From NCBI RefSeq assembly GCF_963921235.1, contig NC_086097.1, positions 98,334,001 to 98,398,000 on the forward strand: a stretch of 64,000 bases of DNA, in the 5' to 3' direction. The position numbers and the translations under genes were made by a program. Origin of the DNA: Mobula hypostoma (Eukaryota). The notes beneath the pieces are model-generated. The model did no database searches, had not been told where the DNA came from, and saw only the letters and a program-made list of their open reading frames with translations. The stretch's first letter is position 1. Each line of letters starts with the position of its first letter. Shown here one piece after another: positions 3,617 through 57,303 of this stretch.

Positions 3617-4370
3617 GTATAACTGTACAAAACTGATCAAAATCTGTAATTACAGCATTTCCCTGCATTTCAGTTACCGTGCGGAGTGCACTCATACACC
3701 TTAGAGGGAAGTGTCTTTGAACCTCGGTAAAATATTGACCCCAGATGATGTTCAGAGCACATAATCAAGTCATCCTTAAAACCACTAAATTCACCTCAAT
3801 AGGTCTGCCCAATCTCATCCCAGTTTCAATTTAGCTATCATTAAATCAGTAATTGTTCTGTTCATAAACTGGAGGATACTTTACATTGTGCTTACTGACA
3901 AACTCTAGCTTCCAGTTTTAAAACTCCTTAATTTCAAATTAACTTATGGTTTCTAACTCCTCCTTCCCTTGATCTCCTCTTGCCCCAAAAAACAGAAATC
4001 AGCGCTTTAATTTTGACCTTTGGGTTTTTAAATTGCTCCTCCATCGGCAGCTATACCTTCAAAGTGACACAGCAGAGTGCTCAATTTCAGTCCCAGTCCT
4101 TAGCTCCACTAATACTTTTCATGGCACCGAGTAATTTAGTCAGTCTCTTGGTCAACTGCACCAGTACATTATGTGGCTCAATGTCATGTTTTGACATCCA
4201 GAGGACTTGGAGCTCTGAGGGGATGATGGTGTTCTGTGCATTGATCCCTGTCAACATTCACGTGAAGTATCTTTGGGCACTTTCCGCAAAAGGAAGTGTT
4301 TTTTTTTTGCAACACACATAAAAGTTGCTGGTGAACGCAGCAGGCCAGGCAGCATCTGTAGGAAGAGGTA

Positions 4371-4408
4371 CAGTCGACGTTTCAGGCCGAGACCCTTCGT
4401 CAGGACTA
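4371..4408 (-). ncRNA. Minimal type I hammerhead ribozyme motif (Penelope 3' region)
   Basis: Minus strand reads TAGTC-CTGACGA-AGGGTCTCGGCCT-GAAAC-GTC-GACTG: CUGANGA and GAAA cores, stem I AGTC/GACT, short stem II, GUC cleavage triplet. Confidence 0.8.
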
Positions 4409-6716
4409 ACTGAAGGAAGAGTGAGTAAGAGATTTGAAAGTGGGAGGGGGAGGGGGAGATCCAAAATGATACGAGAAGACAGGAGGGGGAGGGATGGAGC
4501 CAAGAGCTGGACAGATGATTGGCAAAAGGGATATGAGAGGATCATGGGACAGGAGGCCCAGTGCGAAAGACAAGGGGGGGGGACCCAGAGGATGGGCAAG
4601 GGGTATAGTCAGAGGGACAGAGGGAGAAAAAGGAAGGAGAGAAAAAGAATGTGTGTATATAAATAAATAACAGATGGGGTACGAGGGGGAGGTGGGGCAT
4701 TAGCGGAAGTTAGAGAAGTCAATGTTCATGCCATCAGGTTGGAGGCTACCAAGACGGAATATAAGGTGTTGTTCCTCCAACCTGAGTGTGGCTTCATCTT
4801 TACAGTAGAGGAGGCCGTGGATAGACATATCAGAATGGGAATGGGATGTGGAATTAAAATGTGTGGCCACTGGAAGATCCTGCTTTCTCTGGCAGACAGA
4901 GCGTAGGTGCTCAGCAAAGCGGTCTCCCAGTCTGCGTCGGGTCTCGCCAATATATAGAAGGCCACATCGGGAGCACCGGACGCAGTATATCACCCCAGTC
5001 GACTCACAGGTGAAGTGTTGCCTCACCTGGAAGGACTGTTTGGGGCCCTGAATGGTGGTAAGGGAGGAAGTGTAAGGGCATGTGTAGCACTTGTTCCGCT
5101 TACACGGATAAGTGCCAGGAGGGAGATCAGTGGGGAGGGATGGGGGGGACGAATGGACAAGGGAGTCGCGTAGGGAGTGATCCCTGCGGAATGCCGAGAG
5201 AAGAGGGGGAGGGAAAGATGTGCTTAGTGGTGGGATCCCGTTGGAGGTGGCGGAAGTTACGGAGAATAATATGTTGGACCCGGAGGCTGGTGGGGTGGTA
5301 GGTGAGGACCAGGGGAACCCTATTCCTAGTGGGGTGGCGGGAGGATGGAGTGAGAGCAGATGTACGTGAAATGGGGGAGATGCATTTAAGAGCAGAGTTG
5401 ATAGTGGAGGAAGGGAAGCCCCTTTCTTTAAAAAAGGAAGACATCTCCCTCGTCCTAGAATGAAAAGCCTCATCCTGAGAGCAGATGCGGTGGAGACGGA
5501 GGAATTGCGAGAAGGGGATGGCGTTTTTGCAAGAGACAGGGTGAGAAGAGGAATAGTCCAGATAGCTGTGAGAGTCAGTAGGCTTATAGTAGACATCAGT
5601 GGATAAGCTGTCTCCAGAGACAGAGACAGAAAGATCTAGAAAGGGGAGGGAGGTGTCGGAAATGGACCAGGTAAACTTGAGGGCAGGGTGAAAGTTGGAG
5701 GCAAAGTTAATAAAGTCAACGAGCTCTGCATGTGTGCAGGAAGCAGCACCAATGCAGTCGTCGATGTAGCAAAGGAAAAGTGAGGGGCAGATACCAGAAT
5801 AGGCACGGAACATAGATTGTTCTACAAAGCCAACGAAACGGCAGGCATAGCTAGGACCCATACGGGTGCCCATAGCTACACCTTTAGTTTGGAGGAAGTG
5901 GGAGGAGCCAAAGGAGAAATTATTAAGAGTAAGGACTAATTCCGCTAGACGGAGCAGAGTGGTGGTAGAGGGGAACTGATTAGGTCTGGAATCCAAAAAG
6001 CGTAGAGCTTCTTATCCGTGTAAGCAGAACAAGTGCTACACATGCCCTTACACTTCCTCCCTTACCACCATTCAGGGCCCCAAATAGTCCTTCCAGGTGA
6101 GGCGACACTTCACCTGTGAGTCGGCTGGGGTGATATACTGCGTCCGGTGCTCCCGATGTGGCCTTCTATATATTGGCGAGACCCGACGCAGACTGGGAGA
6201 TTGCTTTGCTGAGCACCTACGCTCTGTCCGCCAGAGAAAGCAGGATCTCCCAGTGGCCATGCATTTTAATTCCACATCCCATTCCCATTCTGACATGTCT
6301 ATCCACGGCCTCCTCTACTGTAAAGATGAAGCCACACTCAGGTTGGAGGAACAACAGCTTATATTCCATCTGGGTAGCCTCCAACCTGATGGCATGAACA
6401 TTGACTTCTCAAACTTCTGCTAATGCCCCACCTCCCCCTCGTACCCCATCTGTTATTTATTTTTATACACACATTCTTTCTCTCACTCGCCTTTTTCTCC
6501 CTCTGTCCCTCTGAATATACCTCTTGCCCATCCTCTGGGTTCCCCCCCCCTTGTCTTTCTTCCCGGACATCCTGTCCCATGATCCTCTCGTATCCCCTTT
6601 TGCCTATCACCTGTCCAGCTCTTGGCTCTATCCCTCCCCCTCCTGTCTTCTCCTATCATTTTGCATCTCCCCCTCCCCCTCCAACTTTCAAATCCCTTAC
6701 TCACTCTTCCTTCAGT

Positions 6717-6754
6717 TAGTCCTGACGAAGGGTCTCGGCCTGAAACGTCGACTG
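6717..6754 (+). ncRNA. Minimal type I hammerhead ribozyme motif
   Basis: CTGACGA 6722-6728, GAAAC 6742-6746, GTC 6747-6749; stem I AGTC (6718-6721) pairs with GACT (6750-6753). Confidence 0.8.
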
Positions 6755-6960
6755 CGCCTCTTCCTATAGATGCTGCTTGGCCTGCTGCGTTCACCAGCAA
6801 CTTTGATGTGTGTGGCTTGAATTTCCAGCATCTGCAGAATTCCTATTGTTTGTGTTTTTTTTTGCCGCGGCTACCCTACGCCCCACCACCCACCCTCAAT
6901 CACCACGGTCACACATCTCCAACTCCGGAGACTTCTCACAAGGCTTTCTAGCGTTCTCAC

Positions 6961-21504: not shown

Positions 21505-22912
21505 CCTCAACTATCTCGACTGTACCTCTTCCCACCCTGCCACATGTGCCGAAGGTGCCGCGCCCCAGAGGCCTCAATGACTACAGACCAGTGGCATTGA
21601 CCTCCCACATCATGAAGACCCTGGAGAGACTTGTTCTGGAGCTGCTCCAGCCTATGGTCAGGCCACACTTGGATCCCCTCCAGTTCGCCTACCAGCCCCG
21701 ACTAGGAGTTGAGGATGCCATCGTCTACCTGCTGAACCGTGTCTGCGCCCACCTGGACAAGCCAGCGAGCACTGTGAGGGTCATGTTTTTTGACTTCTCC
21801 AGTGCGTTCAACACCATCCGCCCTGCTCTGCTGGGGGAGAAGCTGACAGCGATGCAGGTGGATGCTTTCCTGGTGTCATGGATTCTTGATTACCTGACTG
21901 GCAGACCACAGTACGTGTGCTTGCAACACTGTGTGTCCGACAGAGTGATCAGCAGCACTGGGGCTACACAGGGGACTGTCTTGTCTCCCTTTCTCTTCAC
22001 CATTTACACCTCGGACTTCAACTACTGCACAGAGTCTTGTCTTCTTCAGAAGTTTTCTGATGACTCTGCCGTAGTTGGATGCATCAGCAAGGGAGATGAG
22101 GCTGAGTACAGGGCCACGGTAGGAAACTTTGTCATATGGTGTGAGCAGAATTATCTGCAGCTTAATGTGAAAAAGACTAAGGAGCTGGTGGTAGACCTGA
22201 GGAGAGCCAAGGTACCAGTGACCCCTGTTTCCATCCAGGGGGTCAGTGTGGACATGGTGGAGGATTACAAATACCTGGGGATATGAATTGACAATAAACT
22301 GGACTGGTCAAAGAACACTGAGGCTGTCTACAAGAAGGGTCAGAGCCGTCTCTATTTCCTGAGGAGACTGAGGTCCCTTAACATCTGCTGGACAATGCTG
22401 AGGATGTTCTACGAGTCTGTGGTGGCCAGTGCGATCATGTTTGCTGTTGTGTGCTGGGGCAGCAGGCTGAGGGTAGCAGACACCAACAGAATCAACACAC
22501 TCATTTGTAAGGCCAGTGATGTTGTGGGGATGGAACTGGACTCTCTGACGGTGGTGTCTGAAAAGAGGATGCTGTCTAAGTTGCATGCCATCTTGGACAA
22601 TGTCTCCCATCCACTACATAATGTACTGGTTGGGCACAGGAGTACATTCAGCCAGAGACTTATTCCACCGAGACGCAACACCGAGAGTGTCATAGGAAGT
22701 CATTCCTTCCTGTGGCCATCAAACTTTACAACTCCTCCCTGAGGGTCAGACACCCTGAGCCAATAGGCTGGTCCTCGACTTATTTCCTGGCATAATTTAC
22801 ATATTACTATTTAACTATTCATGGTTCTATTAATATTTAATTATTTATGGTGCAACTGTAACAAAAACCGATTTCCCCCGGGTTCAGTAGAGTATGACTA
22901 TGACTACTGTAA
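21505..22912 (+). mobile_element. Rex1/Babar LINE, 5'-truncated
   Basis: ORF 21546..22286 (NDYRPVALTS, DFSSAFNTI, FSDD) and 22395..22742; (TATGAC)n-like tail near 22893-22907. Confidence 0.9.
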
Positions 22913-22916
22913 CTGT

Positions 22917-24130
22917 GACATGCAAAAATGCCATTCCCTGTTCCCAGTTCCTCCGTCTCCGTTGCATCTGCTCCCAGGATGAGACTTTCCGTTCTAGGAC
23001 ATCTCAAGTGTCCTTTTTCTTTAAGGATCGTGGTTTCCCTTCTGCCGTCATCAATGATGCCCTCACCCGCATCTCCTCCATTTCCCTCAGCTCGGCCCTC
23101 ACCCCATCCTCCCGCCACCACAACAGGGACAGAGTTCCCCTTGTCCTCACCTCCCACCCCACCAGCCTCTGGATCCAGCACATTATCCTCCGCAACTTCC
23201 GCCACCTTCAACAGGACCCCACCACTAAGCACATCTTTCCCTCTCCACCCCTCTCTGCTTTCCGCAGGGATCGGTTCCTCCGCGGCTCCCTGATCCACAC
23301 GTCCCTCCCCACGGATCTCCCACCTGGCACTTATCCCTGTAAGCGTAAGTGCTACACCTGTCCCTACACCACCTCTCTTGCCACCATTTAGGGCCCCAAA
23401 CAGTCCTTCCAGGTGAGGCAACACTTCACTTGTGAGTCTGTTAGGGTCATCTGTTGCATCCGGTGCTCCCGGTGCGGCCTCCTCTACATCGGTGAAACCC
23501 GACTCAGGTTGGGGGACCGCTTCGTTGAGCACCTCTGCTCCGTCCGCCACAACAGACAGGATCTCCCGGTTGCCACCCACTTTAACTCTGCTTCCCATTC
23601 CCATTCGGATATGTCCATACATGGCCTCCTCTACTGCCATGATGAGGCTAAGCTCAGGTTGGAGGAGCAACACCTCCTATAGGCTAGGTAGTCTCCAGCC
23701 CCTTGGTATGAACATAGAATTCTTCAACTTCCGGTGATTCACTCCCCTTCCTTTCCCCTATCCCTATTTCACTCTGCACCTTCCCCTAGCTGCCTATCAC
23801 CTCCCTCATGGTTTTGCCACCTCCTACTACCCAATGTGTTTTCCCCTATTCCTTCTTCACCTTTCCTGCCTATCACCTCCCTGCCTCCCCTCCCCCACCC
23901 CTTTATCTTTCCCCTCACTGGTTTTTCACCAGGAACCTACCAGCCTTCTCCTTCCCACCCTCCCCCTACCTTCTTTATAGGGCCTCTGCCCCTTCCCTCG
24001 ACAGTCCTGACGAAGGGTTCCGGCCCGTAACGTTGACTGATCGTTTCCACAGATGCTGCCCAACCTGCTGAGTTCCTCCAGCGTGTTGTGAGTGTTACTT
24101 TGAGCCCAGCATCTGCAGAGTATTTTGTGT
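22917..24130 (+). mobile_element. Penelope-like element 3' fragment with degenerate hammerhead (24003-24039)
   Basis: ORFs 22894..23391 and 23413..23682 (GIY-YIG); CTGACGA..GTAACGTTGACTG with mutated GAAA core. Confidence 0.88.
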
Positions 24131-27334: not shown

Positions 27335-28139
27335 TATTATTTTTTTCTTTTGTATTTGCACAGTTTGTCTTTTGCACGTAGGTTGTTTACCTGTTGAGTG
27401 CAAACTTTCATTTGGCTCAATTACCTTTTTACTGTGAGTACTCACAAGAAAATGAATCTCAGGATTGTATGTGATGACATGTTACTGTGGACTTTATGCA
27501 GAACAGTTCAGAATTGCCTTACTCTTTATTGTTCCCCAGCCGTCAGTGACAGAATTTGCCGCAGTTTGACACAAATGTGCAAGCTATTTAAATATTGTTT
27601 GTTCTAAGCATGGTGTAGTGTCTGATGGCCACACGATGTGCATGCAATTGACAGTAATTAGACAATGTTCGGCTACAGTCTCATGTCCCAATTAAATGGC
27701 ATTAAGGCAATCCTGGCTGTTTTCCAGTTGTTCTTGCTCATAAAGAATTGTCGCAAATAAGTAGATGACCCAATTAAATGGTTTCCACTGTATGTGTATA
27801 GTAGTGCAGAAAGAAAGTAGAAATAGTGTCATTGACTGTTTAGAAACCCGATGTCTGAGGGGAGGAAGTTGTACCTGAAACATTGAGTGCATATCTTGGG
27901 CTCCTGTATCTCCTTGATGGTAAAAATGTGAAGAGGGCATGTCCTGGGTGGTGGGGGTCCTTAATAATGGCGCCGCTTTTTTGAGCATCACTTTTTGAAG
28001 ATGTCCTTGATCGTTGGGAGGCGCATGATCATTCTTCAACCAAAATCACAAATTCATATTAAAAAAATTACAAAAAGCAGGGGTCTTAGAACAGACATCT
28101 GTGGAACACCACTTCTCACCTTGGATAATCACTGGCTTA

Positions 28140-29108
28140 GGCTACGTCCACACTACGCCGGGTAATTTTGAAAACAAAGCCGTTTTTCTTCGTTTTGACC
28201 CTCTATCCACACTAAAACGGCGTTTTCATCCCCCGAAAACAGAGATGTTCAGAAACGGTCTCCAGAGTGAATAAATCTGAAAACCTAATATCCGTTGCAG
28301 TGTGCGGGGTAACCAGAGCTTTTTAAAACCGCTGTCATGACGTGCCGGAACAAATGGCAACAGCGCGGCATTTCATTGTTTTCTTATTATTACTATTACT
28401 ACCTTATTGTTGTCAAACAATTGATACTAGAGCGTACAATCATCACAGCGATATTTGATTCTGCGCTTCGCAGAACCTAACAATTTCAGAACAGACGGCA
28501 ACGAGACTGAAGCCAGAAGAGTTAGAAATGTACTCACCAAATACTTTGACCCATAGCTTACTGAATAAGTAAGTATTCTCACTTTGCCTTGTTTTCTGTC
28601 CTTGCTTGTATGAAGGTAGTTTACCTATTTATGCAAGTACTTCTTTGACAATAGATGTGTAACAGCCTAATGTAACGTTGTATGGAAATACAAGATAACA
28701 CTGATGCAGACATGTTTTATACATTTAACAAGGTGCTTTATTAATGCAAGTGTTAGTCAGTTTTTCAATGTTCGTCGTCAGCTGGGTCATACTGTCCGTG
28801 AACTCCCTGTTGGTTGCCTCCATACGCTCCAGTATTTGTTTTTTTTAGTTTTAAGTCCTCCTGTGCAAGAGCCAAGAGCAATTCCTTTTAAGTTTTTCTA
28901 CTCTGTAACTGGACAAACGTGCACCAAGTATACCGTTTCCTCTTCACTTGTTTTCTGTGTATCCTGCGCATGCCCAGTAGGAGGAGATTCGCCCAAATAT
29001 CCGTCTAATGTGGACAGAGATATTTTGAAAAACGCTAAATGTGGATGCCTATCGTTTTTACTCGAAACTGGCGTTTTCAAAATTATCCGGCATAGTGTGG
29101 ACGTAGCC
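28140..29108. mobile_element. PIF/Harbinger non-autonomous element
   Basis: 36-bp TIR GGCTACGTCCACACTA..AATTTTGAAAAC at both ends; 3-bp TSD TTA (28137-39, 29109-11). Confidence 0.88.
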
Positions 29109-29649
29109 TTACTTGGCTAAAGAATTGCAAGTATGGAAGTTGTATCTTTTACCTCAGACTCCTGCTGCTCAGCCTTTAAGGCATTAGAAGCATTAACTAT
29201 GTTTGGGATGGGGGTGGTGGTAAGAGCAAAGAAAGGAGAAGAGGTGTGAAAGGAGTCGCGAGGAACTGGGACTGGTGACTGACTACACACTTGTTCTTAC
29301 AAATATGGGCCAGATGTCAACCAGCCTAATATCCTTACTTTTCTTACTCCTTCCCTCAACCCTTATGATTCTGACAAACTATATCATAATACGTCAGTAT
29401 TGCAATCAAAGAAGTCAGTATTGCAGAGGAGATTCTAAGGTGTTGGCAAGCTCGCAACGGCTCTTGATCAATTACATTATTAGAGGTTAGAGCATAGAAT
29501 TTTCATTTTACTTTTCCAAATTAAACAAAATGTGTTTACCATTGGTTATTCAAGTATATTGATATTCCATTCTTGTTTAATTGTGCAATTTAATTTCTTA
29601 TACACTGGGACATGTTTAAAGAATGTTTCCCCTCTTCCCATCAGCGGAA

Positions 29650-30560: not shown

Positions 30561-31386
30561 TATATCAAACAAATTCCAATGGCGGTTTCTCAGTAGATAA
30601 AGTAGTGGATAACCAAGTTGCAATAAAGAGCATTGGATCAAAAACAATTATTAAAACCAAAAAGTATTACTAGTTAAACAAATGGAAGCAGGGGATGACT
30701 AATTCCCTGAACCACCAAATGACTTGAAATGAAATGTTGCAGAAGATACCATCTTCTAAAATTGTTTAATATTTACATTAGTAGGTGGGTATGGAAAATG
30801 TAATTATTTGGTCATGTTGGATATTACTTTTATACTCAAACAGGGCTGTAGTGGAAGCTAGAGGTGTTGGTTCATTAGAATTTCCAAAAATTGTTTGATA
30901 ATCTGCCACAGAACGGGTTCTTGTGTTGAGAATGACATACGTATTACAGAGGATACAAGATTAGTTGAAGGAAAATCTGCATGGGGATAAACAGTTTAGT
31001 TTCAGGTTGGGAAGCTCTAACTAATTGGGTGCTTTGGGAATTAGTGCTGAAGCCTTAAATATGAATTAGTGGCATGAGTGGGCCTTTTGGTCCCAACCAC
31101 CTGCTGCATCATTTAAAAGCATGGCTGATCTCAACTTTACATTCCTGTTTACCCATGGTAACCTTTCACCCCACTGCTTATGTATCTGGCTCCCTCTGCC
31201 ATAAAACATTCAAAATAGTTTTCAACACTGTTGAGAAAAAGTTCCAAAGACCCATGACACTCTTGTATGGGGGAAAGAGCCTCATCTGGGTGTGCTGCGA
31301 GGTTGAGAATCTCCTACAAAAGGATATGTCTTGTCCAACATTACCTCAGAAGACAACCTGCCCATTTCAGGCATCAGTCTATTAAA

Positions 31387-31527
31387 AATGCAAACACGAG
31401 GAAATCTGCAGATGCTGGAATTTCAAGCAACACACATAAAAGTTGCTGGTGAATGCAGCAGGCCAGGCAGCATCTCTAGGAAGAGGTACAGTCGACGTTT
31501 CGGGCCGAGACCCTTCGTCAGGACTAA
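31387..31527 (-). mobile_element. 141-bp Penelope-derived mini-element (hammerhead + tail)
   Basis: 14-bp TSD ATCAGTCTATTAAA (31373-86, 31528-41); intact hammerhead 31489-31526. Confidence 0.85.
31489..31526 (-). ncRNA. Minimal type I hammerhead ribozyme motif
   Basis: Minus strand TAGTC-CTGACGA-AGGGTCTCGGCCC-GAAAC-GTC-GACTG with a perfect GGG/CCC stem II. Confidence 0.8.
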
Positions 31528-31767
31528 ATCAGTCTATTAAACCACCCCTTAAATGCTTCCACTCATTAACACACTCTATTAAATAAAATCAATTTTTACG
31601 TTACTATCGACGTGATCTCATCCACCTGTTTTGTTCAGTTCAGTTGTTCAATAGGTATACTTTTTTTTTGTTCAGTTCCTCTAGCAACGTGGTAATGTTC
31701 TGTTAGTTTCCCGAATTGCTATAGTACCTGCAAACTGATTTTCTTAGGTACTGTACTAGGACACTCA

Positions 31768-33891
31768 GGCTACGTCCACACTAGGCCGGATAAATCTGTA
31801 ACCGAAGCTTTTGCTCTTTGTTTTGACCCTCCGTCCACACTGAAACAGTGTTTTCCTCCCCCGAAAACGGAGCTTTTCAAAAATGCTGTCCAGAGTGAAT
31901 AAATCTGAAAACGACTAATGGCCGGTGTAGTGTGTACGGGGTAACCGGCTCTTTTTAAAAACCGCTGTCATGACGTGCCGGAACAGATGGTGGCGGCAGC
32001 GTGGCATTTCATTGTTTTCTTAAACACAACCTCCAACACAACAACAATGGCGGACGGCTTCATGTGTGTGTTGTTTACTTTATTGTTTACATTAATTACA
32101 GCCCCCCCACACAACCTAACAATTTCAGAACAGACGGCAATGAGACTGAAGCCAGAAGAGTTAGAAATGTACTCACCAAATACTCTGACCCATAACTTAC
32201 TGAATACTGAATAAATAAGTATACTCACTTTGGCCTGTTTTCTGTCCTTGCTTGTATGGAGGTGGTTTAGCTATTTATGCAAGTACTTCTCTGACAGTAG
32301 ATGTATAACAGCCTCATGCTTAATGTAACATTGTATGGAAATGCAAGATAACACTAATGCAGACATGTTTTATACATTTAACATGGTGCTTTATTAATGT
32401 ATTTCTAGTGCAAACAATCAGTAGATGTAATTGTCACTACTTCCAAAATGTTATTTTTAAGTCGTAGCTTATGTTTGGCATCGACATGAAAATGTTAAGG
32501 CCAAAAAAGGAAAATTGTAAGTTTCAGTTTTACTCAGGTAAAAATAAAATCGCTTTTGCCCAGTAACTTGTTTTATTGCACATGTTAAATACAGCAAAAT
32601 AATACAGAAAGACATTGCAAAAGTAAAGGCAAACAAATGAGGTAACAGCAAATTTCACTTAGCATCTCCCAGTGGCCGCACATTTTAATTCCACATCCCA
32701 TTCCCATTCTGATATGTCTATCCACGGCCTCCTCTACTGTAAAGATGAAGCCACAGTCAGGTTGGAGGAACAACACCTTATATTCCATCTGGGTAGCCTC
32801 CAATCTGATGGCATGAACATTGACTTCTCTAACTTCCACTAATGCCCCACCTCCCCCTCGTACCCCATCCGTTATTTATTTATATACACACATTCTTTCT
32901 CTCTCTCTCCTTTTTCTCCCTCTGTCCCTCTCACTATACCCCTTGCCCATCCTCTGGGTTTTTTCCCCTCCCTCCCCCTTTTCCTTCTCCTTGGGCCTCC
33001 TGTCCCATGATCCTCTCATATCCCTTTTGCCAATCACCTGTCCAGCTCTTGGATCTCCCCCTCCCCCTCCCATTTTCAAATCTCTTACTAGTTCTTCCTT
33101 CAGTTCGTCCTGACAAAGGGTCTTAGCCTGAAACGTCAATTGTACCTCTTCCTAGAGATGCTGCCTGGCCTGGTGCATTCACCAGCAACTTTGATGTGTG
33201 AAGCCTTATTGTATTTAGTTGTAGTTGTTGTCCCTTTCATCGGTGAAGAGACTATGGCTGTAGGAAATGTTTCCAGGGTGACCCCTCTGTGGGAGTGGGG
33301 AAGATGTTGGTGGGGCCACCCGGGGGTCTGTGTGTCCATATGTGTAGCTATTGTAGTGGCTGTGAGGCTGGTATTGTGGCGGTGAAAAGTACTGGAGGGA
33401 GCCAACATATTCCTCATCATTGCAAATCCCTCTGCAACAGAGTTGGTCAGTTTTTCAATGTTTGTCGTCAACCAGGTCATACTGTCCATGAACTCCCTGT
33501 TGGTTGCCTCCATACGCTCCAGTATTTGTTTTTTCAGTTTTAAGTCCTCCTGCATGAGAACCAACGGCGGTCCGTCGTTTGGCAATTTCCTTTTAAGTTT
33601 TTCTAGTCTGTAACTGGACAAATGCGCACCAAGTCTTTCATGGCGAGATTCTACACCAAACATGTCATAGCCATCACCTGTTGCTTGGTCCAAACTGTCA
33701 GAGTTGGGCGTACTCGTCAACGCGGGTGAATTCTGTAGATGTATCCTGCGCATGCCCAGTAGGACGAGATTCGCCCAAATACCCGTTTTAATGTGGATGG
33801 AGGTATTTTCAAAAACTCCTTGTGTGGACGCCTATCGTTTTTACGCAAAACCGGCATTTTCAAAATTACCCGGTCTAGTGTGGACGTAGCC
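31768..33891. mobile_element. PIF/Harbinger deletion derivative (same family as 28140-29108)
   Basis: TIR GGCTACGTCCACACTAG / CTAGTGTGGACGTAGCC; TSD TCA (31765-67, 33892-94); coiled-coil ORF remnant within 33136..33753. Confidence 0.87.
32662..33200 (+). mobile_element. Penelope 3' fragment nested in Harbinger (degenerate hammerhead ~33105-33143)
   Basis: Near-identical to the end of the GIY-YIG ORF and 3' UTR of the 4311-6851 element. Confidence 0.88.
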
Positions 33892-35399
33892 TCAGATCCT
33901 TTCCATAATCTCTGCAGTAATATGTGGTGCTTTGATAGATTTTTATTTAGCCAAAATGAACAATTTTGCTTTTTTTCCACATTGTGCTCCTATTTGTGCT
34001 CCTATTTGCCAAAGTGATCTTTGATTACTCACATTTTTGTACTTTTTTGAATCTCTTTGTGCACTGTTTGCAACTTATTTTTCCATCTTATTTTAGCAAA
34101 TCTAGTAATGATATTTGCAGTGCCTACATCCCAAGTGTTTATATAAATTGAAAAAAGTTGAGACTCTGAACAGATCCCCTGTGGCATAACACCCATATTG
34201 TACCTGTTTCTTATCAGCCAGTTAACCTTTTACTGGCACTATAATGTTGTCACCTAATATGCACTGTAATTTTGTGTAATAACTTTTCAGTGATGCAAAA
34301 TCGAATGCCTTTTTACTGCATCTCTTCCTTTCCACTTCAACCATAGTACATTTTACTCCAAAGAGCACTGATGAAATCAGTCAAATATGGTTTTCCTTTT
34401 ACAAAACTTTTGGCTTTGTCTTGTATCTTTTAAGTGCCATGCTATAACTTTACTATCAGTTTCTGATGCTTTTGCTATGATAGGTTATACTAACTAGTCA
34501 GTTGCCTTCTCATTAATGAATAAAGGAGTTACACTTGCTATTTTCCAATCTGATGAAAGTTTCACGACAATTTCCTATCTATATTAATGAACAGAACAAA
34601 TGTCTCATTGAAGTTTGATATAAAAATTTGAGAATGAAAGTGGCAAAGGCAGCGGTGTTGGAAAAGGGATGTAAATGATAATGTGAAGTAGAATGTAGAT
34701 GCAGAGGGTGTAAGAAAAATGAGGTTATCCATTTTGTTAGGAAGAATATGAATGCAAGTTCTCATTTAATCAGGCTTTGAAATTGTGGTCCACAGAAATT
34801 TTGATCATGAAGAATGAACACAATTTAGCATTTGCAGATAGAGCAACTAACTGAGAAGGCAGTTGTTGCAGTTAATGCAATCATTTTACAACACCAGTGA
34901 GAAGCAATGGGGGTTTAATTTCTCCTTTTGTCTGTAAGTTCTTGATATGTTTTCCTCGTGACAATGTGGGTTTCCTCCCGCGTTCTAACGACATGTTGTT
35001 AGGGTTCTTAGGTTGTGGACATACACTGGAAATATGCTGGCACTTGTGGGCTGCCTCACCACAATCTTCGTTGATTTGATTTTCACTGTCTATTTTGATG
35101 TATGTGTGACAAATGAAGTTGATCTTAAATCCTTTTGGGTTTCCTTTGTTGCATTTGAAATGGGGGTACTGGACTAAGCCTTACTACAGCTGTCTTGGGC
35201 TTTATTGCAACATTAGGAGTACTGTTCAATTTTGGCTGCATCATAGAGTGAAAATCAACCGTGTAGAAAAGGCCCTTCAGACCTATTCATCTGTACTGAC
35301 CATTGTGCCTATTTATGCTAATTCCACTTGCCTGCATTAGTTCCATGCTCCTCCCTGCTCTGCTCATTCAAGGTGCGAGCATGTATTTACTGTGGAGAG

Positions 35400-41885: not shown

Positions 41886-44492
41886 ACATTAATATTCTCT
41901 TTAAAACAGAATGTTTATGTTATGATCAATGTTCTTGTGAAGTGCAAGAAATGCTATAAAGAAATGGTAAGTTATCAATGTGTGGAAAGAGCTGGATACC
42001 AGAACTTATTACAGGTTCTCCCCAGCTTATGAGTACCTAATCATGTACAATGTGTATGTACGAGTATTTACAAATCATTTAAGTTTCACATAAAAGGATT
42101 TTGGTAAAAAACAAAGTCCACAGAATTGGTAATTAATGATATATGCAAATAAAGCCAGAAAGTGGAGATGAAGAGCCATTTGTGATATTTTTACTTAGTA
42201 TTGTGAATCTTAAGTTTGCAGAGGCAACTTTATAAATGGGGGAATTCTAAAAAGGGAAACTTAAGGTCATCTACTTTTGAACCTGAGTCTAATAGAACAT
42301 TTTCTTGAAAGTTGTGGAAGATCAATGATTTGAGGGGGTTAGTGATACATAGGAATGAAATCATTAGTGAGCAAATGGAATTTGATCTTGCAATTGAGAT
42401 ACACAAATGAAAGGAAATTACAGAAATTTGAACAGAGGAGGCCATTGACCAGTTGTGACTGTGCTGGCATAGTTTTGAGCAGTCTTGTCACTTTCATGCT
42501 CTCTGGTATTAATCCTCGTGCTTAACCAATTTCAATTTGAAGCAACCCATTGATTTTTGTTTCTGTCATCAATACCTGAATTCTAAACCATATCATTATG
42601 TTAAAATAAAAAAAAGACTCATTCTTTAGTCTTGGTCTATCCTTTACCTGGAATACCCTCACTAGTTTGGACATGAAATTTTCAAAATGGATTCAAGGTG
42701 CATTCGTGAAAATTAAACCATCTTAAAGAATTAACATTTGGCCACAGGTTGCATAAGAATGTTTTGTATTTCCTTGTTTAGAAGATTAGAAGGAGACCAA
42801 ATCAAAATATACAGATTTAGTATAAAGGACGAAGTGGAGCTGATGAACATTTTCACAGGATGGGAGAATTCACTTGAGGAGGACACTGACACATATGTAA
42901 CATCATGGTTCAGTGTGAATCTGTTCTGGCCTGAATATCACTTGGATGTAGTACTGAAAACCAGGAGTTGTGAAAGTTTTTTTCCCTCTATGTAACTCAC
43001 TGATCCGATTGTAGCAGTCCTTTTATTTCCCCAAATGATTGTTAATTCATCACCAAGTTCATTGCTTGGAGGCAAACATTTCTTTAAAGAAAGCAGTTGC
43101 CTCAATTGCATACAGTTTTACTTGATCTGTAAAATAAAATAACTCTGAAGGATGAGCAAGATTTATTCTGGCCTTGCATGTCACCTGATTATTTTGCCTC
43201 AGGCTTCTGTCACTTGGCCTCAAGACCAACTGGGCTGGCAAAATTGACCTATCAAAATCAGAGAAAATATTAGACAAAATATTGTGTGTGGGTGAGGGGG
43301 CCTTGGGAAATCCAGTCACTTCTCACTATCAGTAATAAGGTTCATCAAACTCTTGTGGTGCAAGCTGGCAGCCTGAGATGCTGTTGTTCACTCATGGTGT
43401 TTGAAAGGTCTGTTCTCTGTTCAGTGCATTTCCTAGTGGCTCAACACCGTAGTTATCAAATTACCACGTCTACTGGAAGTAATATTGGTTAATATTGCCA
43501 GTTGAAGTACCCATTGGCAGTCATAATTTTGCTGGAAAGGAAAGGATCTCTTGATCCTTGGATCTTGAATTACACCATTTCTGTCATAGTTGTATTTTGA
43601 GAAGCCTTCCGGCAGGTGTAATAAGAAGGCTCCAGGCAGAAGGGGCTATCATCTATAGACACCTAACCATCTCTTGTTATGATTGAAAATGTCTCTTGCT
43701 TTTGCAGAGGTGGTGAGATCTGAAAGTTTGATCACTTTCCTTTCTCCACCTATTATTCTGTAACATGTATATTATTTGAATATTTTTCCTTATCCTATTT
43801 GGAAATTCAGCTCCATTTTGCTCTTTTAATCTAAATATAAGTTATATCAATTGAGTGTAGCTAATTCAGAGTTGTAGTTGCTTGCAATAGATGTCTATAC
43901 TTGGTGGCATAATGCTTCTCAACAATTTAGATCACTTTGCACTGTGTATTGTACACTGATGTGAGAGAGGCAGGCCTGTTACTGAAAGCATCGAGGGGAC
44001 TAGAAAGCCTGTCAAATTATCTTGCTAGTCAACACCTGGTTTTGCTGGGCATGCAATGTTTGCTGCAGCAATGTTCAAATCAAGGGGGTGGGGGAAAGAG
44101 TGTGGGTGGAGAGAGTGGCTGGTGAGTCCCCTTCCCTGTACCCTGCTTTTGCATATTCACTGTAGTTTGTATTGGAGCATAATCATAGAACCGGTCAGCA
44201 CAGTACAGTCCCTGTGTAGCTAATTATGGGGAGGGAAGAAAGGGGCTTGTTTAGCTGTTGTTGTGTTGCTTCTCTGATCTGCTGAGCTTTGTGGGAATGC
44301 TGTGTTGGCACTGGAATATGTGGCAGTAGTTGAGGGCTGCCCCAGCACAACTCTAGTTGTGATGTTGTTAAACACAAATGATGCACGTCAAAACACAAGG
44401 TAAAATGCATGTGATAAATCTGACCCCTCCTTCCAACACAGCCTATAACCCTCCATTTTTCTTGCATCCGTGTGCCAATCTTTCTTAAATGT

Positions 44493-44587
44493 TCCCTGAT
44501 AAAGAGTCTTGGCCAAAATGTTGACTGTTTATTCCTCTCCATTGATGCTGCCAACTTGCTGAGTTCCTCCAATATTTGGTGTGTTGC
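44493..44587 (+). mobile_element. 95-bp Penelope-derived mini-element (degenerate hammerhead + tail)
   Basis: 10-bp TSD TCTTAAATGT (44483-92, 44588-97); begins TCCCTGATAAAGAGTCTTGGCCAAAATGTTGACTG and ends in the GATGCTGCC..TGTGTTGC tail. Confidence 0.75.
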
Positions 44588-44779
44588 TCTTAAATGTCTC
44601 TATTATATCAGCCTCTACCACCTCCTCTGACAGTATGTTCCAGGCACATACTGCTTTCCATCTGTAAGAAAAAAAAACTACTCCTTGACATCTGCTTTAA
44701 GCTTTCCTTTGCTCACCTTAAATTGTATTGGCCATTGGCAACCTGAGAGAAAGACACTGTCCACTCTGTAAATGTCTCT

Positions 44780-45170: not shown

Positions 45171-45322
45171 TTTGAAGAAATCCTTGCCCAATTAACCATC
45201 ATCATATAACCTGTAGCTTCAGAGGTCCTAACACACTAGACCACTGTTATACTAAGATGAGGAATGCCTATCATGCCATGTCTAGACTGCATTTCAGCAA
45301 AATGCCAAAGGGCAGGACAACA

Positions 45323-45415
45323 GAGGAACACTCACAACATGCTGGAGAAACTCAGGTCGGGCAGCATCCGTGGAAAAGATGAGTCGATGTTTCGGGCCGG
45401 AACCTTCGTCAGGAC
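45323..45415 (-). mobile_element. ~90-bp Penelope-derived mini-element (hammerhead + tail)
   Basis: Direct repeat CAGGACAACA (45313-22, 45410-19); minus strand GTC-CTGACGA-AGGTTCCGGCCC-GAAAC-ATC-GAC followed by the GATGCTGCC tail. Confidence 0.75.
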
Positions 45416-45439
45416 AACAAAGGTGTTCGTGGAAGGCAG

Positions 45440-51960: not shown

Positions 51961-52584
51961 TTAAAGTTATTTGTAATGCTATATTAGAACAGCAGATCAA
52001 CATTGGCTTCTGGCAGCCTGAATATATTGAACCCTCTTTCTTTTCTGGAACAGAGCAGGCAGAGACATGAAGTTAGGAATCCCCTTGTGTTTCGCGCATT
52101 CTCTGGTATGGTAGTATCCTTATAAAAGCCTTTTGTGACTAGTTTCCTGGTTTTTATTCTACCCTGTTTCTTGGAAAATTGTTGATCCTTAGTGAGTTAT
52201 TACAATTCACTTGTACAGTATACTTAAGCTTAATAAAAAAGGTCTGGAGAAGATTTCAAGCTCAATGTTCTCATATTGGAACATCAGAATAACAATTACT
52301 AATTGGTGATTGCAATTGTCAGATTAGCAGTAGGCTAGGAGGATTCCTTTTCTAAATACGATCTTCCCTGTAAGGCTATGAGACAGTGAAATCAATTGTT
52401 TAAATGTAAACAACCGAAGTTCAAGTTCTTTTTTTAACAGTGGAAGGGTCAAAGTATGTTTAATCAATAAAGTACACTGCAGCTCATTGAATTCAGAAGT
52501 GTATAATTTGACAAATAAAACTACTGCTGAACACTTTTGTTGAGATCATCAAAAAGAGACATGAGACAGTTGCAGAATACTTGC

Positions 52585-53490
52585 AACACATACAAAATGC
52601 TGGAGGAGCTCAGCAGGCCAGGCAGTGTCTATGGGAAATGCGTAAATAGTTGATGTTTCGGGTCAAGACCCTTCATCAGGACTGCAAAAAAAAAGATGAG
52701 CAAGAAGGTGGAGGGAAGGGAGGAAGAAGTACAAAGCGGTAGGTGATGGGTGAAACTGGGAGAGGGGGAGGGTGAAGTAAAGAGCTGGGAAATTGGTTGA
52801 TGAAAGAGATAAAGGGCTGGAGGAGGGGGAATCTGATAGAGGGTAGAAGACCATGGAAGAAAGGGAAGGGGAGGAGCACCAGAAGGAGGTGATGGACAGG
52901 TAAGGAGATAAGGTGAGAGATAGAACCAGGAATAGGAATGGTAAACGGGGTGAGGGGCAATTACCAGAAGTTTGAGAAATTGATGTTCATGCCATCGGGT
53001 TGAAGGCTCCCTAGATGGAATATAAGGTGTTGCTGGTTAATCCTGCATGTGGCCTCATTGCAACAGTAGAGGAGACAACAGACTGACATGTTGGAATGGG
53101 AAGTAGAATTAAAATGGGAGGCCACTGGATAATCCCACTGTTCCTGGCAGATGGAGTGTAGATGATTGGCGAAGCGGTCTCCCAGTCTACATCAGGTCTC
53201 ACCAATATACAGGAGGCCACACCGGGAGCACAGGATACAGTAGATGAGCCCAACAGACTCATAGGTGAAGTGCTGCCTCATCTGGAAGGATTGTTTTGGG
53301 CCCTGAACGCTAGTGAGGGAGGTGGTGTAGGTGTAACACTTGTTTGACCTGCAAGGATAAGTACCAGAAGGGAGTTTGGGGAGGGGGGGGCAGCATTGAA
53401 TGGACAAGGGAGTCACACGGAGCGATCCTTGCGGAAAGTGGTGAGGTGGGAGGGAAAAGATTGGTGGTGGGATCCTGTTGGAGATGAGTG
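52585..53490 (-). mobile_element. Older Penelope 3' fragment with degenerate hammerhead (~52648-52685)
   Basis: ORF 53192..53416 (GTYPCRSNKCY, CGLLYIGET); minus strand CTGATGAAGGGTCTTGACCCGAAACATC. Confidence 0.85.
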
Positions 53491-53758
53491 AATCACAATC
53501 CCTGACAATTTTTCAGTTGCTGGCACTCTTAACTTGAATCTGAAAGTTGTGGGTACAAGGTTCAAGGGTTTGACACATGATCTGAACTGTCACTGCTGTA
53601 CATTTGAGGAAGTAATTGTTTTGCATCAGAAATGAACTGTTGAAACAGTATGTAAGCTGAAGAACAACAGGAATTCTGCAGATGCTGGAAATTCAAGCAA
53701 CATACATCAAAGTTGCTGGTGAACGCAGCAGGCCAAGCAGCATCTGTAGGAAGAGGTG

Positions 53759-53796
53759 CAGTTGACGTTTCAGGCCGAGACCCTTCGTCAGGACTA
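53759..53796 (-). ncRNA. Minimal hammerhead motif (one stem I mismatch)
   Basis: Minus strand CTGACGA..GAAACGTCAACTG. Confidence 0.65.
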
Positions 53797-56180
53797 ACTG
53801 AAGGAAGAGTGAGTAAGGGATTTGAAAGTTGGAGGGGGAGGGGGAGATCCAAAATGATAGGAGAAGACAGGAGGGGGAGGGATGGAGCCAAGAGCTGGAC
53901 AGGTGATAGGCAAAAGGGGATACGAGAGGATCATGGGACAGGAGGTCCAGGAAGAAAGACAAGGGGGGGGGTGACCCAGAGGATGGGCAAGAGGTATATT
54001 CAGAGGGACAGAGGGAGAAAAAAGAGAGTGAGAGAAAGAACGTGTGCATAAAAATGAGTAACAGATGGGGTACGAGGGGAAGGTGGGGCCTTAGCGGAAG
54101 TTAGAGAAGTCGATGTTCATGCCATCAGGTTGGAGGCTACCCAGATGGAATATAAGGTGTTGTTCCTCCAACCTGAGTGTGGCTTCATCTTTACAGTAGA
54201 GGAGGCCGTGGATAGACATGTCAGAATGGGAATGGGAAGTGGAATTAAAATGTGTGGCCACTGGGAGATCCTGCTTTCTCTGGCGGACAGAGCGTAGATG
54301 TTCAGCAAAGTGGTCTCCCAGTCTGCGTTGGGTCTCGCCAATATATAAAAGGCCACATCGGGAGCACCGGACGCAGTATATCACCCCAGCCGACTCACAG
54401 GTGAAGTGATGCCTCACCTGGAAGGACTGTTTGGGGCCCTGAATGGTGGTAAGGGAGGAAGTGTAAGGGCATGTGACACTTCTCACACTCTTAAACTTTT
54501 CGATGATTTTAAGTTCCCTGGCCCCCACCGCTTTATTTTCACCATGGATGTCCAGTCCTTATATACTTCCATCCCCCATCAGGAAGGTCTCAAAGCTCTA
54601 CGCTTTTTGGATTCCAGACCTAATCAGTTCCCCTCTACCACCACCCTGCTCTGTCTAGCGGAATTAGTCCTTACTCTTAATAATTTCACCTTTGGCTCCT
54701 CCCACTTCCTCCAAACTGAAGGTGTAGCTATGGGCACCCGTATGGGTCCTAGCTATGCCTGCCTTTTTGTTGGGTTTGTGGAACAATCTATGTTCCGTGC
54801 CTATTCTGGTATCTGTCCCCCACTTTTCCTTCGCTACATCGACGACTGCATTGGCGCTGCTTCCTGCACGCATGCAGAACTCGTTGACTTTATTAACTTT
54901 GCCTCCAACTTTCACCCTGCCCTCAAGTTTACCTGGTCCATTTCCGACACCTCCCTCCCCTTTCTAGATCTTCCTGTCTCTGTCTCTGGAGACAGCTTAT
55001 CCACTGATGTCTACTATAAGCCTACTGACTCTCACAGCTATCTGGACTATTCCTCTTCTCACCCTGTCTCTTGCAAAAACGCCATCCCCTTCTCGCAATT
55101 CCTCCGTCTCCGCCACATCTGCTCTGAGGATGAAGCTTTTCATTCTAGGATGAGGGAGATGTCTTCCTTTTTTAAAGAAAGGGGCTTCCCTTCCTCCACT
55201 ATCAACTCTGCTCTTAAACGCATCTCCCCCATTTCACGTACATCTCTCACTCCATCCTCCCACCACCCCACTAGGAATAGGGTTCCCCTGGTCCTCACCT
55301 ACCATCCCACCAGCCTCCGGGTCCAACATATTATTCTCCGTAACTTCCGCCACCTCCAACGGGATCCCACCACTAAGCACATCTTTCCCTCCCCCCCGCC
55401 CCTCTGCTTTCTGCAGGGATCGCTCCCTACGTGACTCCCTTGTCCATTCGTCCCCACTGATCTCCCTCCTGGCACTTATCCGTGTAAGCGGAACAAGTGC
55501 TACACATGCCCTTACACTTCCTCCCTTACCACCATTCAGGGCCCCAAACAGTCCTTCCAGGTGAGGCATCACTTCACCTGTGAGTCGACTGGGGTGATAT
55601 ACTGCGTCTGGTGCTCCCGATGTGGCCTTTTATATATTGGCGAGACCCAACGCAGACTGGGAGACCGCTTTGCTGAACATCTACGCTCTGTCCGCCAGAG
55701 AAAGCAGGATCTCCCAGTGGCCACACATTTTAATTCCACATCCCATTCCCATTCTGACATGTCTATCCACGGCCTCCTCTACTGTAAAGATGAAGCCACA
55801 CTCAGGTTGGAGGAACAACACCTTATATTCCATCTGGGTAGCCTCCAACCTGATGGCATGAACATTGACTTCTCTAACTTCCGCTAAGGCCCCACCTCCC
55901 CCTCGTACCCCATCTGTTACCCATCTTTATGCACACGTTCTTTCTCTCACTCTCCTTTTTCTCCCTCTGTCCCTCTGAATATACCTCTTGCCCATCCTCT
56001 GGGTCACCCCCCCCTTGTCTTTCTTCCCGGATCTCCTGTCCCATGATCCTCTCGTATCCCCTTTTGCCTATCACCTGTCCAGCTCTCGGCTCTATCCCTC
56101 CCCCTCCTGTCTTCTCCTATCATTTTGGATCTCCCCCTCCCCCTCCAACTTTCAAATCCCTTACTCACTCTTCCTTCAGT

Positions 56181-56218
56181 TAGTCCTGACGAAGGGTCTC
56201 GGCCTGAAACGTCGACTG
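56181..56218 (+). ncRNA. Minimal type I hammerhead ribozyme motif, sense to INO80 pre-mRNA
   Basis: CTGACGA 56186-92, GAAAC 56206-10, GTC 56211-13, stem I AGTC/GACT. Confidence 0.8.
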
Positions 56219-57303
56219 TACCTCTTCCTACAGATGCTGCCTGGCCTGCTGCGTTCACCAGCAACTTTGATGTATGTAAGCTGAAGCTTGTTTATGCAGT
56301 CAAATCTGCATGATAAAGACTGCTTGAAGACCAGTGAATTCTGACTGGATTTTCCTGTTTAGTTTAGAGGGCAGAGACTGATACTTGAAATCCAAAAGGC
56401 ATTAAACTGGATATCAGTAATGCAAATGCACTAAGTGCTTCTGTACACATTGATAAAATTGTACAGTGCTCCACACTGCAAAAAAAGTCAATAATTTCAA
56501 GAAAAATGTCTGTATAGACTTAAAGTGAAATGAATCCTGTGAAATGAAACTTCACAATCTGAAATGAATCCCACAGAAACATTCTGTAATGTTTCCCAGC
56601 TGATACCTCCTTGAACCTCTGTTTTTTTGAATAAGAATTCCAAATATTCATTGCTCTCACACTTCATCTAACGGCCCTCTATTTTTAATCGCTCACCCCT
56701 AGATGTACATCCTCTTGTAAGAGGAATGGTGGGTATAATAATGGTGGTGGTCATAGTTGGAGTAACAAAATCAAATAGCATTTGTATTCAATAAGATAAG
56801 TCGGCAACATATTGATGAATTTACATCAGCGTAACGCTCAGGTGTACTGGCATTCGTGATGGTAAATAAAATAAAACATGTATTCAATTTGGTGTTATTT
56901 AACTACCTCTAGTGTTCCAAATGCTCATTTTTGTCTAATGGCATACTAAGTAACAATGAAAATAAGTAATATCAGGAAAAAAAGGAATATAAGTTACATC
57001 AGGCCCTCCTGTCCCAAATATCTGCTATTATGTCTTTTATTAAAATTACAGTTGATCTTGTACCTGAATGCCATTTTCCCATACCAACCCCACCCCCCCC
57101 CCCGGCCCCAATTAACAATTTCCTTAATATCCAGTAATCTGCATTGTCTTGTAAGTGATTTGGCTGAATAGTAAACATTAGTCAGAACGTTTGAACTCTT
57201 GTTAGAATGTACCTTTAGTACTGGGAAAGTTTGATGACATGCTCCCCTGTTCTCTATAGAACCAACAAAAGGCCCAGATTTTCCTGTATAAGAGGACCTT
57301 TCT

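What the first reader, a model, noticed from the sequence alone, without database searches (positions are those of the whole stretch)
31373..31541. Ribozyme-only mini retroelement: 141 bp of hammerhead plus tail with a perfect 14-bp TSD
Seen: the insert begins 6 nt before the CUGACGA core and contains only an intact hammerhead and the structured Penelope tail. Two further independent inserts (44493-44587, 45323-45415) also start at the ribozyme 5' edge. Random 5' truncation would rarely stop at the same point three times in 64 kb. Inference: either a non-autonomous Penelope-mobilised hammerhead SINE-like (retrozyme-like) family, or a strong RT stop or RNA-processing site at the ribozyme.
Basis: partly seen in the sequence, partly recalled or inferred. 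Interest (0 to 1): 0.72.

Follow-up and report, generated by a model that had tools for sequence, protein, structure and literature searches.

The report
Penelope stub starting at hammerhead edge
This 141-base insert is a real, cut-short copy of the end piece of a very abundant Penelope-type jumping gene, probably not a mini-element family of its own, and many sister copies appear to begin at the same edge of its hammerhead motif, likely because the element's RNA starts there and the copying enzyme runs off its front end.

Summary
Confirmed: 31387-31527 (minus strand) lies between exact 14-bp repeats, and a related species has the empty site with one repeat. The insert is the minimal type I hammerhead plus tail of a Neptune/Nematis-type Penelope-like element, 96.9% identical to a long coding copy in the window. 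The three short copies fit three subfamilies and are rejected as one clade (p-AU 9e-5), so a single SINE/retrozyme family is not supported. The shared 5' edge looks real: 3 of 10 copies start within 10 nt, and public contigs pile up at the stem-I foot in 4 of 4 runs, partly confounded by sister subfamilies that diverge there. Self-cleavage cannot make this edge: the predicted cut lies 34 nt inside. Best reading (about 0.5, inferred): reverse transcription starts inside the tail and runs off an RNA 5' end just before the ribozyme, a strong-stop-like product. Rivals: hairpin-guided junction, splice acceptor, random truncation. The scan noted this pattern before in this and other genomes, and I took the run-off idea from those notes; my paper searches did not find the pile-up in print.

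The parts
31373..31386 (.). Target-site duplication, tail-side copy (14 bp); its last 5 nt (31382-31386) also match the element's continuing tail sequence
   Evidence: single copy in the empty site of X10 and pile of contigs matching through 31382 in 4 of 4 runs
31387..31527 (-). 141-nt insert: minimal hammerhead plus long form of the Penelope tail
   Evidence: 96.9% identical to long copy at 4403 over the shared ~98 nt
31489..31526 (-). Minimal type I hammerhead: stem I 5' strand 31526-31522, core CUGACGA 31521-31515, extra A 31514, stem II 31513-31502, GAAA 31501-31498, palindromic ACGU without loop III, stem I 3' strand 31493-31489
   Evidence: sequence; features as described for min-HHR in PMC4209133; no Rfam match
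31493..31494 (-). Predicted self-cleavage site (after GUC), 34 nt inside the insert
   Evidence: activity not tested
31525..31525 (-). A of AGTC: position where 5' ends of family contigs pile up; candidate RNA start (TTAGTCC fits an initiator consensus recalled from memory)
   Evidence: (equivalent place 6718); start site inferred
31387..31426 (-). Optional ~40-nt tail extension beyond the short 3' end used by other copies
   Evidence: 3' ends at 86-96 nt (5 of 8 measured) or 129-135 nt (3 of 8) from the core
31528..31541 (.). Target-site duplication, ribozyme-side copy (14 bp)
44483..44597 (+). Second short copy (44493-44587) of another subfamily, decayed core, 10-bp TSD
45313..45423 (-). Third short copy, 14-bp TSD with one mismatch overlapping the ribozyme start by 6 nt (microhomology); sister of the long copy at 24007
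4296..6865 (.). Two-armed (head-to-head) long insertion of the same subfamily, RT/GIY-YIG remnants, ~14-bp TSD; one short-tail and one long-tail arm
53648..56286 (.). Two-armed long insertion of the same subfamily, RT (PF00078) and GIY-YIG (PF01541) with CX4CxxC linker, 15-bp TSD
32661..33200 (+). 540-bp 5'-truncated copy of the same subfamily (shares TAGAG and GCATT variants with the insert)
22891..24130 (+). Long copy of a second subfamily (approximate ends)
52583..53486 (-). Long, older copy of a third subfamily

Best explanation
The insert is a real, target-site-duplicated stub of a Neptune/Nematis-type Penelope-like retrotransposon, likely made when the element's enzyme cut the target, began copying inside the tail of an RNA that likely starts a few bases before the hammerhead, and ran off that RNA's front end. 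Shown: insertion with a 14-bp duplication, identity to the end of coding copies, two alternative 3' ends, 5 nt of match between target and tail at the priming side, short copies arising in several subfamilies, a pile of 5' ends at the stem-I foot. From papers: PLE transcripts start inside the pLTR, the tail is the beginning of the next unit, and PLE reverse transcriptase initiates internally at the two tail boundaries on uncleaved RNA. Inferred: the RNA start lies at about 31525; priming at the RNA's 5'-proximal tail gives 85-140-nt run-off copies, priming at the 3'-proximal tail (or a jump to it) gives the long, variably truncated copies. The solitary ribozyme is predicted to be inactive as a monomer and is a passenger; the stub lacks the upstream sequence and is probably dead on arrival.
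For: Empty site and TSD. Family TSDs of 14, ~14, 15, 14 and 10 bp in 5 of 8 insertion events, none found for 3 of 8. Short copies not a clade, p-AU 9.3e-5. 3 of 10 copies start within 10 nt: P 7.5e-5 to 2.2e-3 for a pre-set window, 0.008-0.10 post hoc. With the long-copy reference the largest listed upstream loose-end pile is at the stem-I A (468 and 365 contigs, agreement 0.40); with the insert as reference the same base has 64/47/61/55 contigs in 4 of 4 runs, agreement 0.35-0.41 like unique flanks, median loose length 192 in X1, apart from the long-copy pile 2 nt further (72/66/60/52, agreement 0.54-0.67, median 11-14). No pile at the cleavage site among listed rows (most rows hidden). One untemplated G before the start in 2 of 3 listed joints leaving 31524-31526, and as first consensus letter of the 21-contig pile at 31524 in X10; such G marks capped RNA in L1 and SVA (PMC4859970). 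Internal initiation at tail ends, shorter product from 5'-shortened template, cleavage not needed (PMC11167929). Start site in pLTR (PMC2377424, PMC8557442); pLTR plus tail carry the start of the ORF (PMC3846280).
Against: No RNA 5'-end data: all runs were contigs. Other subfamilies share the ribozyme and diverge exactly upstream of the same A, and their upstream sequence shows in the pile consensus (medians only 68-108 nt in 3 of 4 runs), so the pile is inflated by an unknown share; it fell from 468 to 64 contigs in X1 between the 85% and 92% layouts (different references). The commonest loose letter at the main pile is C on the element strand, not G, in 4 of 4 runs. None of the 3 window stubs starts exactly at the A or shows a clear extra G; the third G joint is explained by a common variant at 31454. 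No tandem copy in the window shows the tail continuing into the ORF, and tail translations match no N-terminus among 120 homologues. In D. virilis the start lies 46 nt plus an intron upstream of the ribozyme, not at its edge.
Confidence: 0.5

Rival explanations
1. Hairpin-guided junction: long cDNAs are made, but the enzyme lets go, or the cDNA end is trimmed, at the foot of the hairpin that stem I closes, so junctions gather there without an RNA end.
For: The pile base is the foot of a -13.5 kcal/mol RNA hairpin; palindromes at inverted junctions are reported for PLEs (PMC3846280); starts scatter from -2 to +7.
Against: As DNA the hairpin is weak (-4.2 kcal/mol); a stall on RNA structure is expected on the 3' side; untemplated G joints (2 of 3) are not predicted.
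Confidence: 0.15
2. Ordinary random 5' truncation; the three stubs coincide by chance and the contig pile reflects where subfamilies stop aligning.
For: Heavy 5' truncation is typical of PLEs (PMC8557442); post hoc P is up to 0.10; a sister subfamily's upstream sequence is visible in the pile consensus; third stub joined by 6-nt microhomology.
Against: Pre-set-window P at most 2.2e-3; no copy truncated inside the ribozyme or tail was found (nhmmer: 10 strong hits, next E 0.85 and not a copy); X1 pile has agreement 0.35 and median 192 nt, as unique flanks do.
Confidence: 0.15
3. The edge is a 3' splice site: the stretch before the ribozyme is an intron-like polypyrimidine tract ending in AG, and stubs derive from a spliced or splice-cleaved RNA.
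For: This insert starts exactly after CAG; the 44493 copy starts at TCC right after the AG position; the third is compatible. The 298-nt upstream segment is 79% pyrimidine with 3 AG. In D. virilis an intron ends at helix I (PMC4209133). A joint from the ORF end (6410) to 6718 occurs in two RNA-like runs at depth 46 and 237, and in one of two DNA runs at 10.6.
Against: The contig pile includes the AG (31525, 31524), no pile at 31523 is listed. A GT donor at the ORF stop is present in 2 of 3 subfamilies but not in this insert's (0 of 5 copies). The AG is also stem I. No upstream exon bases lie in the insert, and no known step gives a free 3' exon. The letters inside the 6410-6718 joint are not known.
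Confidence: 0.1
4. Self-propagating non-autonomous hammerhead SINE or retrozyme monomer with an internal promoter, mobilised in trans, possibly through circles.
For: Monomeric retrozyme derivatives related to pLTRs are widespread in vertebrates including a chondrichthyan (bioRxiv 10.64898/2026.07.22.740005); a tail-to-ribozyme tandem joint exists in X5 at depth 310 against about 45 for single copy; pLTR sequence suffices in trans (PMC3846280).
Against: Short copies are not a clade and sit with long copies; the insert is a monomer with a minimal ribozyme, which showed no cleavage as a single motif in S. mansoni; ends do not match the cleavage site; no family-specific sequence is added.
Confidence: 0.1

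Closest known systems
5'-truncated copies and solo pLTRs of EN+ Penelope-like elements, Neptune/Nematis type (PMC8557442, PMC3846280; passages read)
   Same: RT plus C-terminal GIY-YIG with CX2-5CxxC linker in the parent, hammerhead in the end repeat, optional 30-40-nt tail, head-to-head arms, TSDs, microhomology junctions
   Different: A fixed 5' start at the ribozyme foot is not described in the passages read; solo pLTRs there are often without TSD and ascribed to recombination or deletion
PAc (Poseidon of Anolis) internal initiation of reverse transcription (PMC11167929; main text read)
   Same: Two 3' ends about 40 nt apart, AT-rich target, uncleaved RNA copied, ribozyme near the unit's start
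   Different: Other clade; PAc initiation reported without target homology whereas this insert has a 5-nt match; in PAc the ORF starts inside the ribozyme, not shown here; run-off copies in genomes not analysed
Minimal type I hammerheads of metazoan PLEs (PMC4209133; parts 1-2 of 4 read)
   Same: Extra nucleotide between 9 and 10.1, G10.1-C11.1, palindromic stem III, mostly solitary and 'probably related to truncated PLEs'
   Different: Stem II is 4 bp here; no cleavage assay for this sequence
Non-LTR retrozymes (PMC7229834 passages; bioRxiv 10.64898/2026.07.22.740005 parts 1-3 of 5)
   Same: Non-coding, hammerhead-bearing, pLTR-related, long TSD, dispersed monomers exist
   Different: Retrozymes are tandem units with at least two ribozymes (canonical motif in PMC7229834) giving cut monomers and circles; this is a single unit with a minimal motif, no own lineage shown
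Minus-strand strong-stop DNA of LTR retroelements (own knowledge)
   Same: Proposed run-off to the RNA 5' end from an internal priming site
   Different: Primer would be cut target DNA, not tRNA; analogy only, untested

Membership tests
EN+ Penelope-like element, Neptune/Nematis type | Parent ORF with RT and C-terminal GIY-YIG | tested here: met
   PF00078 E 2.5e-5 (below curated cut-off) and PF01541 E 5.2e-5 (above) in the 54349-55884 copy; 2 of 4 fragments scanned had no family; 230 long homologues at E<=1e-30
EN+ Penelope-like element, Neptune/Nematis type | CX2-5CxxC linker before the endonuclease | tested here: met
   CKRNKCYTC in the window ORF; definition in PMC8557442
EN+ Penelope-like element, Neptune/Nematis type | Insert homologous to the parent's end repeat with hammerhead and optional tail | tested here: met
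   91.5-96.9% identity to five long arms; two 3' end classes
EN+ Penelope-like element, Neptune/Nematis type | RT phylogeny separating Neptune from Nematis | not tested
   no named reference set was fetched
Minimal type I hammerhead (min-HHR) | CUGANGA and GAAA cores, extra base before G10.1-C11.1, palindromic stem III, NUH site, stem I | tested here: met
   sequence; Rfam gave no match
Minimal type I hammerhead (min-HHR) | Self-cleavage (as dimer or with protein) | not testable with these tools
   needs an assay; MFE folds of monomer and dimer are not the catalytic fold
Non-LTR retrozyme | Tandem repeat with at least two ribozyme-bearing units | tested here: not met
   single unit between TSDs
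Non-LTR retrozyme | Expressed as cleaved monomer and circular RNA | not testable with these tools
   only assembled contigs were available
SINE-like non-autonomous family | Short copies form their own lineage | tested here: not met
   3 short of 10 copies, one clade rejected p-AU 9.3e-5; lineages inside a subfamily not tested
SINE-like non-autonomous family | Own internal promoter or unrelated head sequence | tested here: inconclusive
   all 141 nt align to the parent, so no foreign head; promoter activity untested
Run-off (strong-stop-like) product | 5' ends of copies peak at one position | tested here: inconclusive
   peak in window and contigs but confounded by sister subfamilies
Run-off (strong-stop-like) product | Peak equals the capped RNA start; untemplated G at junctions | tested here: inconclusive
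   G in 2 of 3 listed joints and one pile, not at the main pile nor in the 3 window stubs; no RNA end data

The most novel reading that the evidence does not exclude
The stubs are fossils of a defined first step of Penelope replication: the hammerhead and tail form the capped 5' tip of the RNA, the enzyme primes on cut target DNA inside the tail and makes a ~90-140-nt strong-stop cDNA, which either integrates alone (these stubs) or jumps to the RNA's 3' region and so builds pseudo-LTRs, tandems and two-armed insertions. Any solo end repeat with its promoter could then seed such stubs in trans.
Probability: 0.4. Interest if true: 0.62.

Novelty: new member of a known kind. Interest (0 to 1): 0.35.

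Why it matters
The insert itself is an ordinary product of a known retrotransposon class. Its value is as a clean, species-polymorphic example of a short class whose fixed 5' edge bears on an open question: how Penelope-like elements copy themselves and what their hammerhead does (called unclear in PMC8557442). If the edge is the RNA start, genomic stubs map transcript starts and replication intermediates for free, the ribozyme is copied uncut, and many 'solo hammerhead' or 'retrozyme monomer' annotations in vertebrate genomes would be by-products rather than families.

Tried and rejected
No genome is held for this window, so no TSD-anchored genome census was possible. Rfam at E<=1: 0 matches in the window. 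Pattern scans for the ribozyme found 0 loci in viral contigs, metagenome contigs and prokaryote genomes. No RNA holder listed; X9, X17 are only guessed to be RNA, so expression is not addressed. Depth step of roughly 1.3-2x at the ribozyme not used: contig depth is no copy number and other subfamilies add to it. Variant tables omit positions known to vary in the window, so I drew no short-versus-long haplotype conclusion from them. Weak nhmmer hit 40833-40882 (E 0.85) inspected: not a copy. Tail translations against 120 homologues: only chance matches, E>=0.59. Self-cleavage as the cause of the edge rejected by position. One of three extra-G joints dropped because the common 31454 variant explains it; joints leaving 31527 not counted because the next element base is G. 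TATA-like words about 25-30 nt upstream seen in 2 of 3 window subfamilies but not tested against chance, not used. Look-up of earlier notes by sequence: nothing. Luense et al. (PMC5785218) is not held, known only through a review; one search opened an unrelated paper.

Full report
Observation. The two 14-mers at 31373-31386 and 31528-31541 are identical and enclose 141 nt; chance is about 2e-6. Laying public contigs on 31100-31760 (4 of the 24 runs listed) gave an independent test: in X10 (organism C, 9 differences in 272 nt and 18 in 218) one contig runs from 31386 into 31542, i.e. it lacks 155 nt and has one copy of the 14-mer (arithmetic). X1 (organism A) has both junctions with no difference; X5 (organism B) shows the tail-side junction; X11 barely covers the flanks. 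So this is a true insertion with a target-site duplication, younger than the split from C and probably older than the A/B split.

What it is. On the minus strand the insert reads stem I, CUGACGA, one extra A, a 4-bp stem II, GAAA, a loopless palindromic ACGU, the GUC site and the other stem I strand, then a structured tail. This is the minimal type I hammerhead described for metazoan Penelope-like elements (PMC4209133, parts 1-2 of 4 read); Rfam has no match. [quoted passage not shown] The closest named homologues are bamboo-shark proteins at 65-68% identity, so the host is likely a cartilaginous fish (inference). TSDs were found for 5 of 8 events: 14, about 14, 15, 14 (one mismatch) and 10 bp. 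3' ends fall in two classes, 86-96 nt (5 of 8 measured) and 129-135 nt (3 of 8) from the core, and both two-armed insertions have one of each, matching the optional tail and the two internal initiation sites of PAc (PMC11167929, parts 1-2 of 4 read). Family contigs match through 31382 in 4 of 4 runs (95/90/56/92 contigs), so the element continues with the same 5 letters that end the target: priming probably used a 5-nt match inside a longer RNA (AT-rich, so chance is possible).

A family of its own? The three short copies are 63-74% identical to each other; this insert is 96.9% identical to the long copy at 4403 and the 45412 copy 89.9% to the long copy at 24007; the 44496 copy has no close partner (at most 71.4%) and a long branch. 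Holding the three together is rejected (p-AU 9.3e-5, 99 columns). All 141 nt derive from the parent; there is no tandem. Retrozymes are defined as tandem units with at least two ribozymes (PMC7229834 passages; bioRxiv 10.64898/2026.07.22.740005 parts 1-3 of 5), so membership fails, though that preprint counts dispersed monomers among their derivatives. Short lineages inside one subfamily were not tested.

Is the 5' edge non-random? In the window 3 of 10 copies start within 10 nt (-2, about +2, +1 to +7 from the stem-I A). Under exponential truncation with mean 300-1200 nt this has P 2.2e-3 to 7.5e-5 for a pre-set window and 0.10 to 0.008 post hoc (arm lengths are approximate and four arms end at fold-back joints). 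In public contigs laid on a long copy, the largest listed upstream loose-end pile is at that A (468 in X1, 365 in X5, agreement 0.40; 21 at the next base in X17; none listed there for X9; 24 rows shown, 3466 hidden). Laid on the insert at 92%, the same base has 64, 47, 61 and 55 contigs with agreement 0.35-0.41, as for unique flanks at the 3' end (0.39-0.42), separate from the long-copy pile at 31527 (agreement 0.54-0.67, median 11-14 nt) (24 rows shown, 758 hidden). Against this: other subfamilies share the ribozyme and diverge right before the same A, their upstream letters show in the consensus, and median loose lengths are 192 in X1 but only 68-108 in the other three. I therefore take the peak as probable, not measured. 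Earlier notes of the scan report such a peak from whole-genome counts; these are unchecked AI notes and not evidence.

Mechanism. Self-cleavage would cut 34 nt inside the insert and no pile is listed there; single minimal motifs did not cleave in S. mansoni, and PAc inserts uncleaved RNA. A stall at RNA structure should occur on the 3' side of the hairpin (inference). What fits is run-off at an RNA 5' end. PLE transcripts start in the pLTR (PMC2377424 passages; PMC8557442; review PMC6765202 passages), the pLTR and tail carry the start of the next unit (PMC3846280 passages), and shortening the PAc template at its 5' end shortens the product. An RNA that begins near the A therefore has a tail 90-140 nt from its start; priming there yields stubs like this one, priming at the downstream tail yields long copies. 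I took this reading from earlier notes and tested it only in part. Cap evidence is mixed: one untemplated G in 2 of 3 listed joints leaving 31524-31526 (12 shown, 62 hidden) and at the head of a 21-contig pile in X10, as known for capped L1/SVA RNAs (PMC4859970 passages), but not at the main pile and not in the 3 window stubs. Confidence 0.5.

Rivals. The peak base is also the foot of the stem-I hairpin (RNA -13.5, DNA only -4.2 kcal/mol). It is also next to a splice-acceptor-like site: the upstream 298 nt are 79% pyrimidine, this insert starts exactly after CAG and the 44493 copy right after the AG position, and in D. virilis an intron ends at helix I; but the donor-like GT at the ORF stop is missing in this subfamily (0 of 5 copies; present in the 2 other subfamilies) and the contig peak includes the AG. 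Random truncation plus alignment artefact and a self-propagating short family remain at 0.15 and 0.1.

Novelty. The insert is a new member of a known kind. A fixed 5' start at the hammerhead foot was not found in six searches of the held library or in the passages read; subscription papers, Luense et al. (not held) and supplements were not seen. The scan has noted the same pattern often (189 findings hold my search words). Interest 0.35: a well-supported ordinary insertion that serves as a clean example for a testable, still unproven clue to Penelope replication.

Noticed in passing
run X5, window-equivalent joint 31525->31415 (6828->6718): Head-to-tail joint of tail to ribozyme start with one extra G, depth 310 against about 45 for single copy: a small tandem (retrozyme-like) array of ~111-nt units may exist in organism B
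   Followed up: no
window 6410-6718 (table 5): Joint from the ORF end straight to the ribozyme start in X9 (46), X17 (237.5) and X1 (10.6), absent in X5; could be a spliced form or another subfamily; letters between not known
   Followed up: partly
window 55887-56185 and equivalents: The ~300-nt segment between ORF stop and ribozyme diverges between subfamilies, is 79% pyrimidine and ends in a YAG; intron-like, with GT at the stop in 2 of 3 subfamilies
   Followed up: partly
window 4296-6865 and 53648-56286: Two head-to-head insertions, each with one long-tail and one short-tail arm and a 14-15-bp TSD that partly matches the element end
   Followed up: partly
window 31764-33895 and 28136-29109: Two copies of a DNA-transposon-like element with terminal inverted repeats (Harbinger-like by recalled motif); the 32661-33200 Penelope copy sits inside the first
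   Followed up: no
window 7300-8300: GC-rich CpG-island-like stretch that looks like a host promoter and first exon with a splice donor near 7812; the inserts may lie in that gene's intron
   Followed up: no
window 45270-46200: The third short copy sits inside a decayed LINE-like fragment (66% match to 24448-25083)
   Followed up: no
window 202-2403, 9206-10489, 15744-16214, 37253-37894, 46845-50856: Many decayed CR1-like LINE ORF fragments (family name recalled, not scanned)
   Followed up: no
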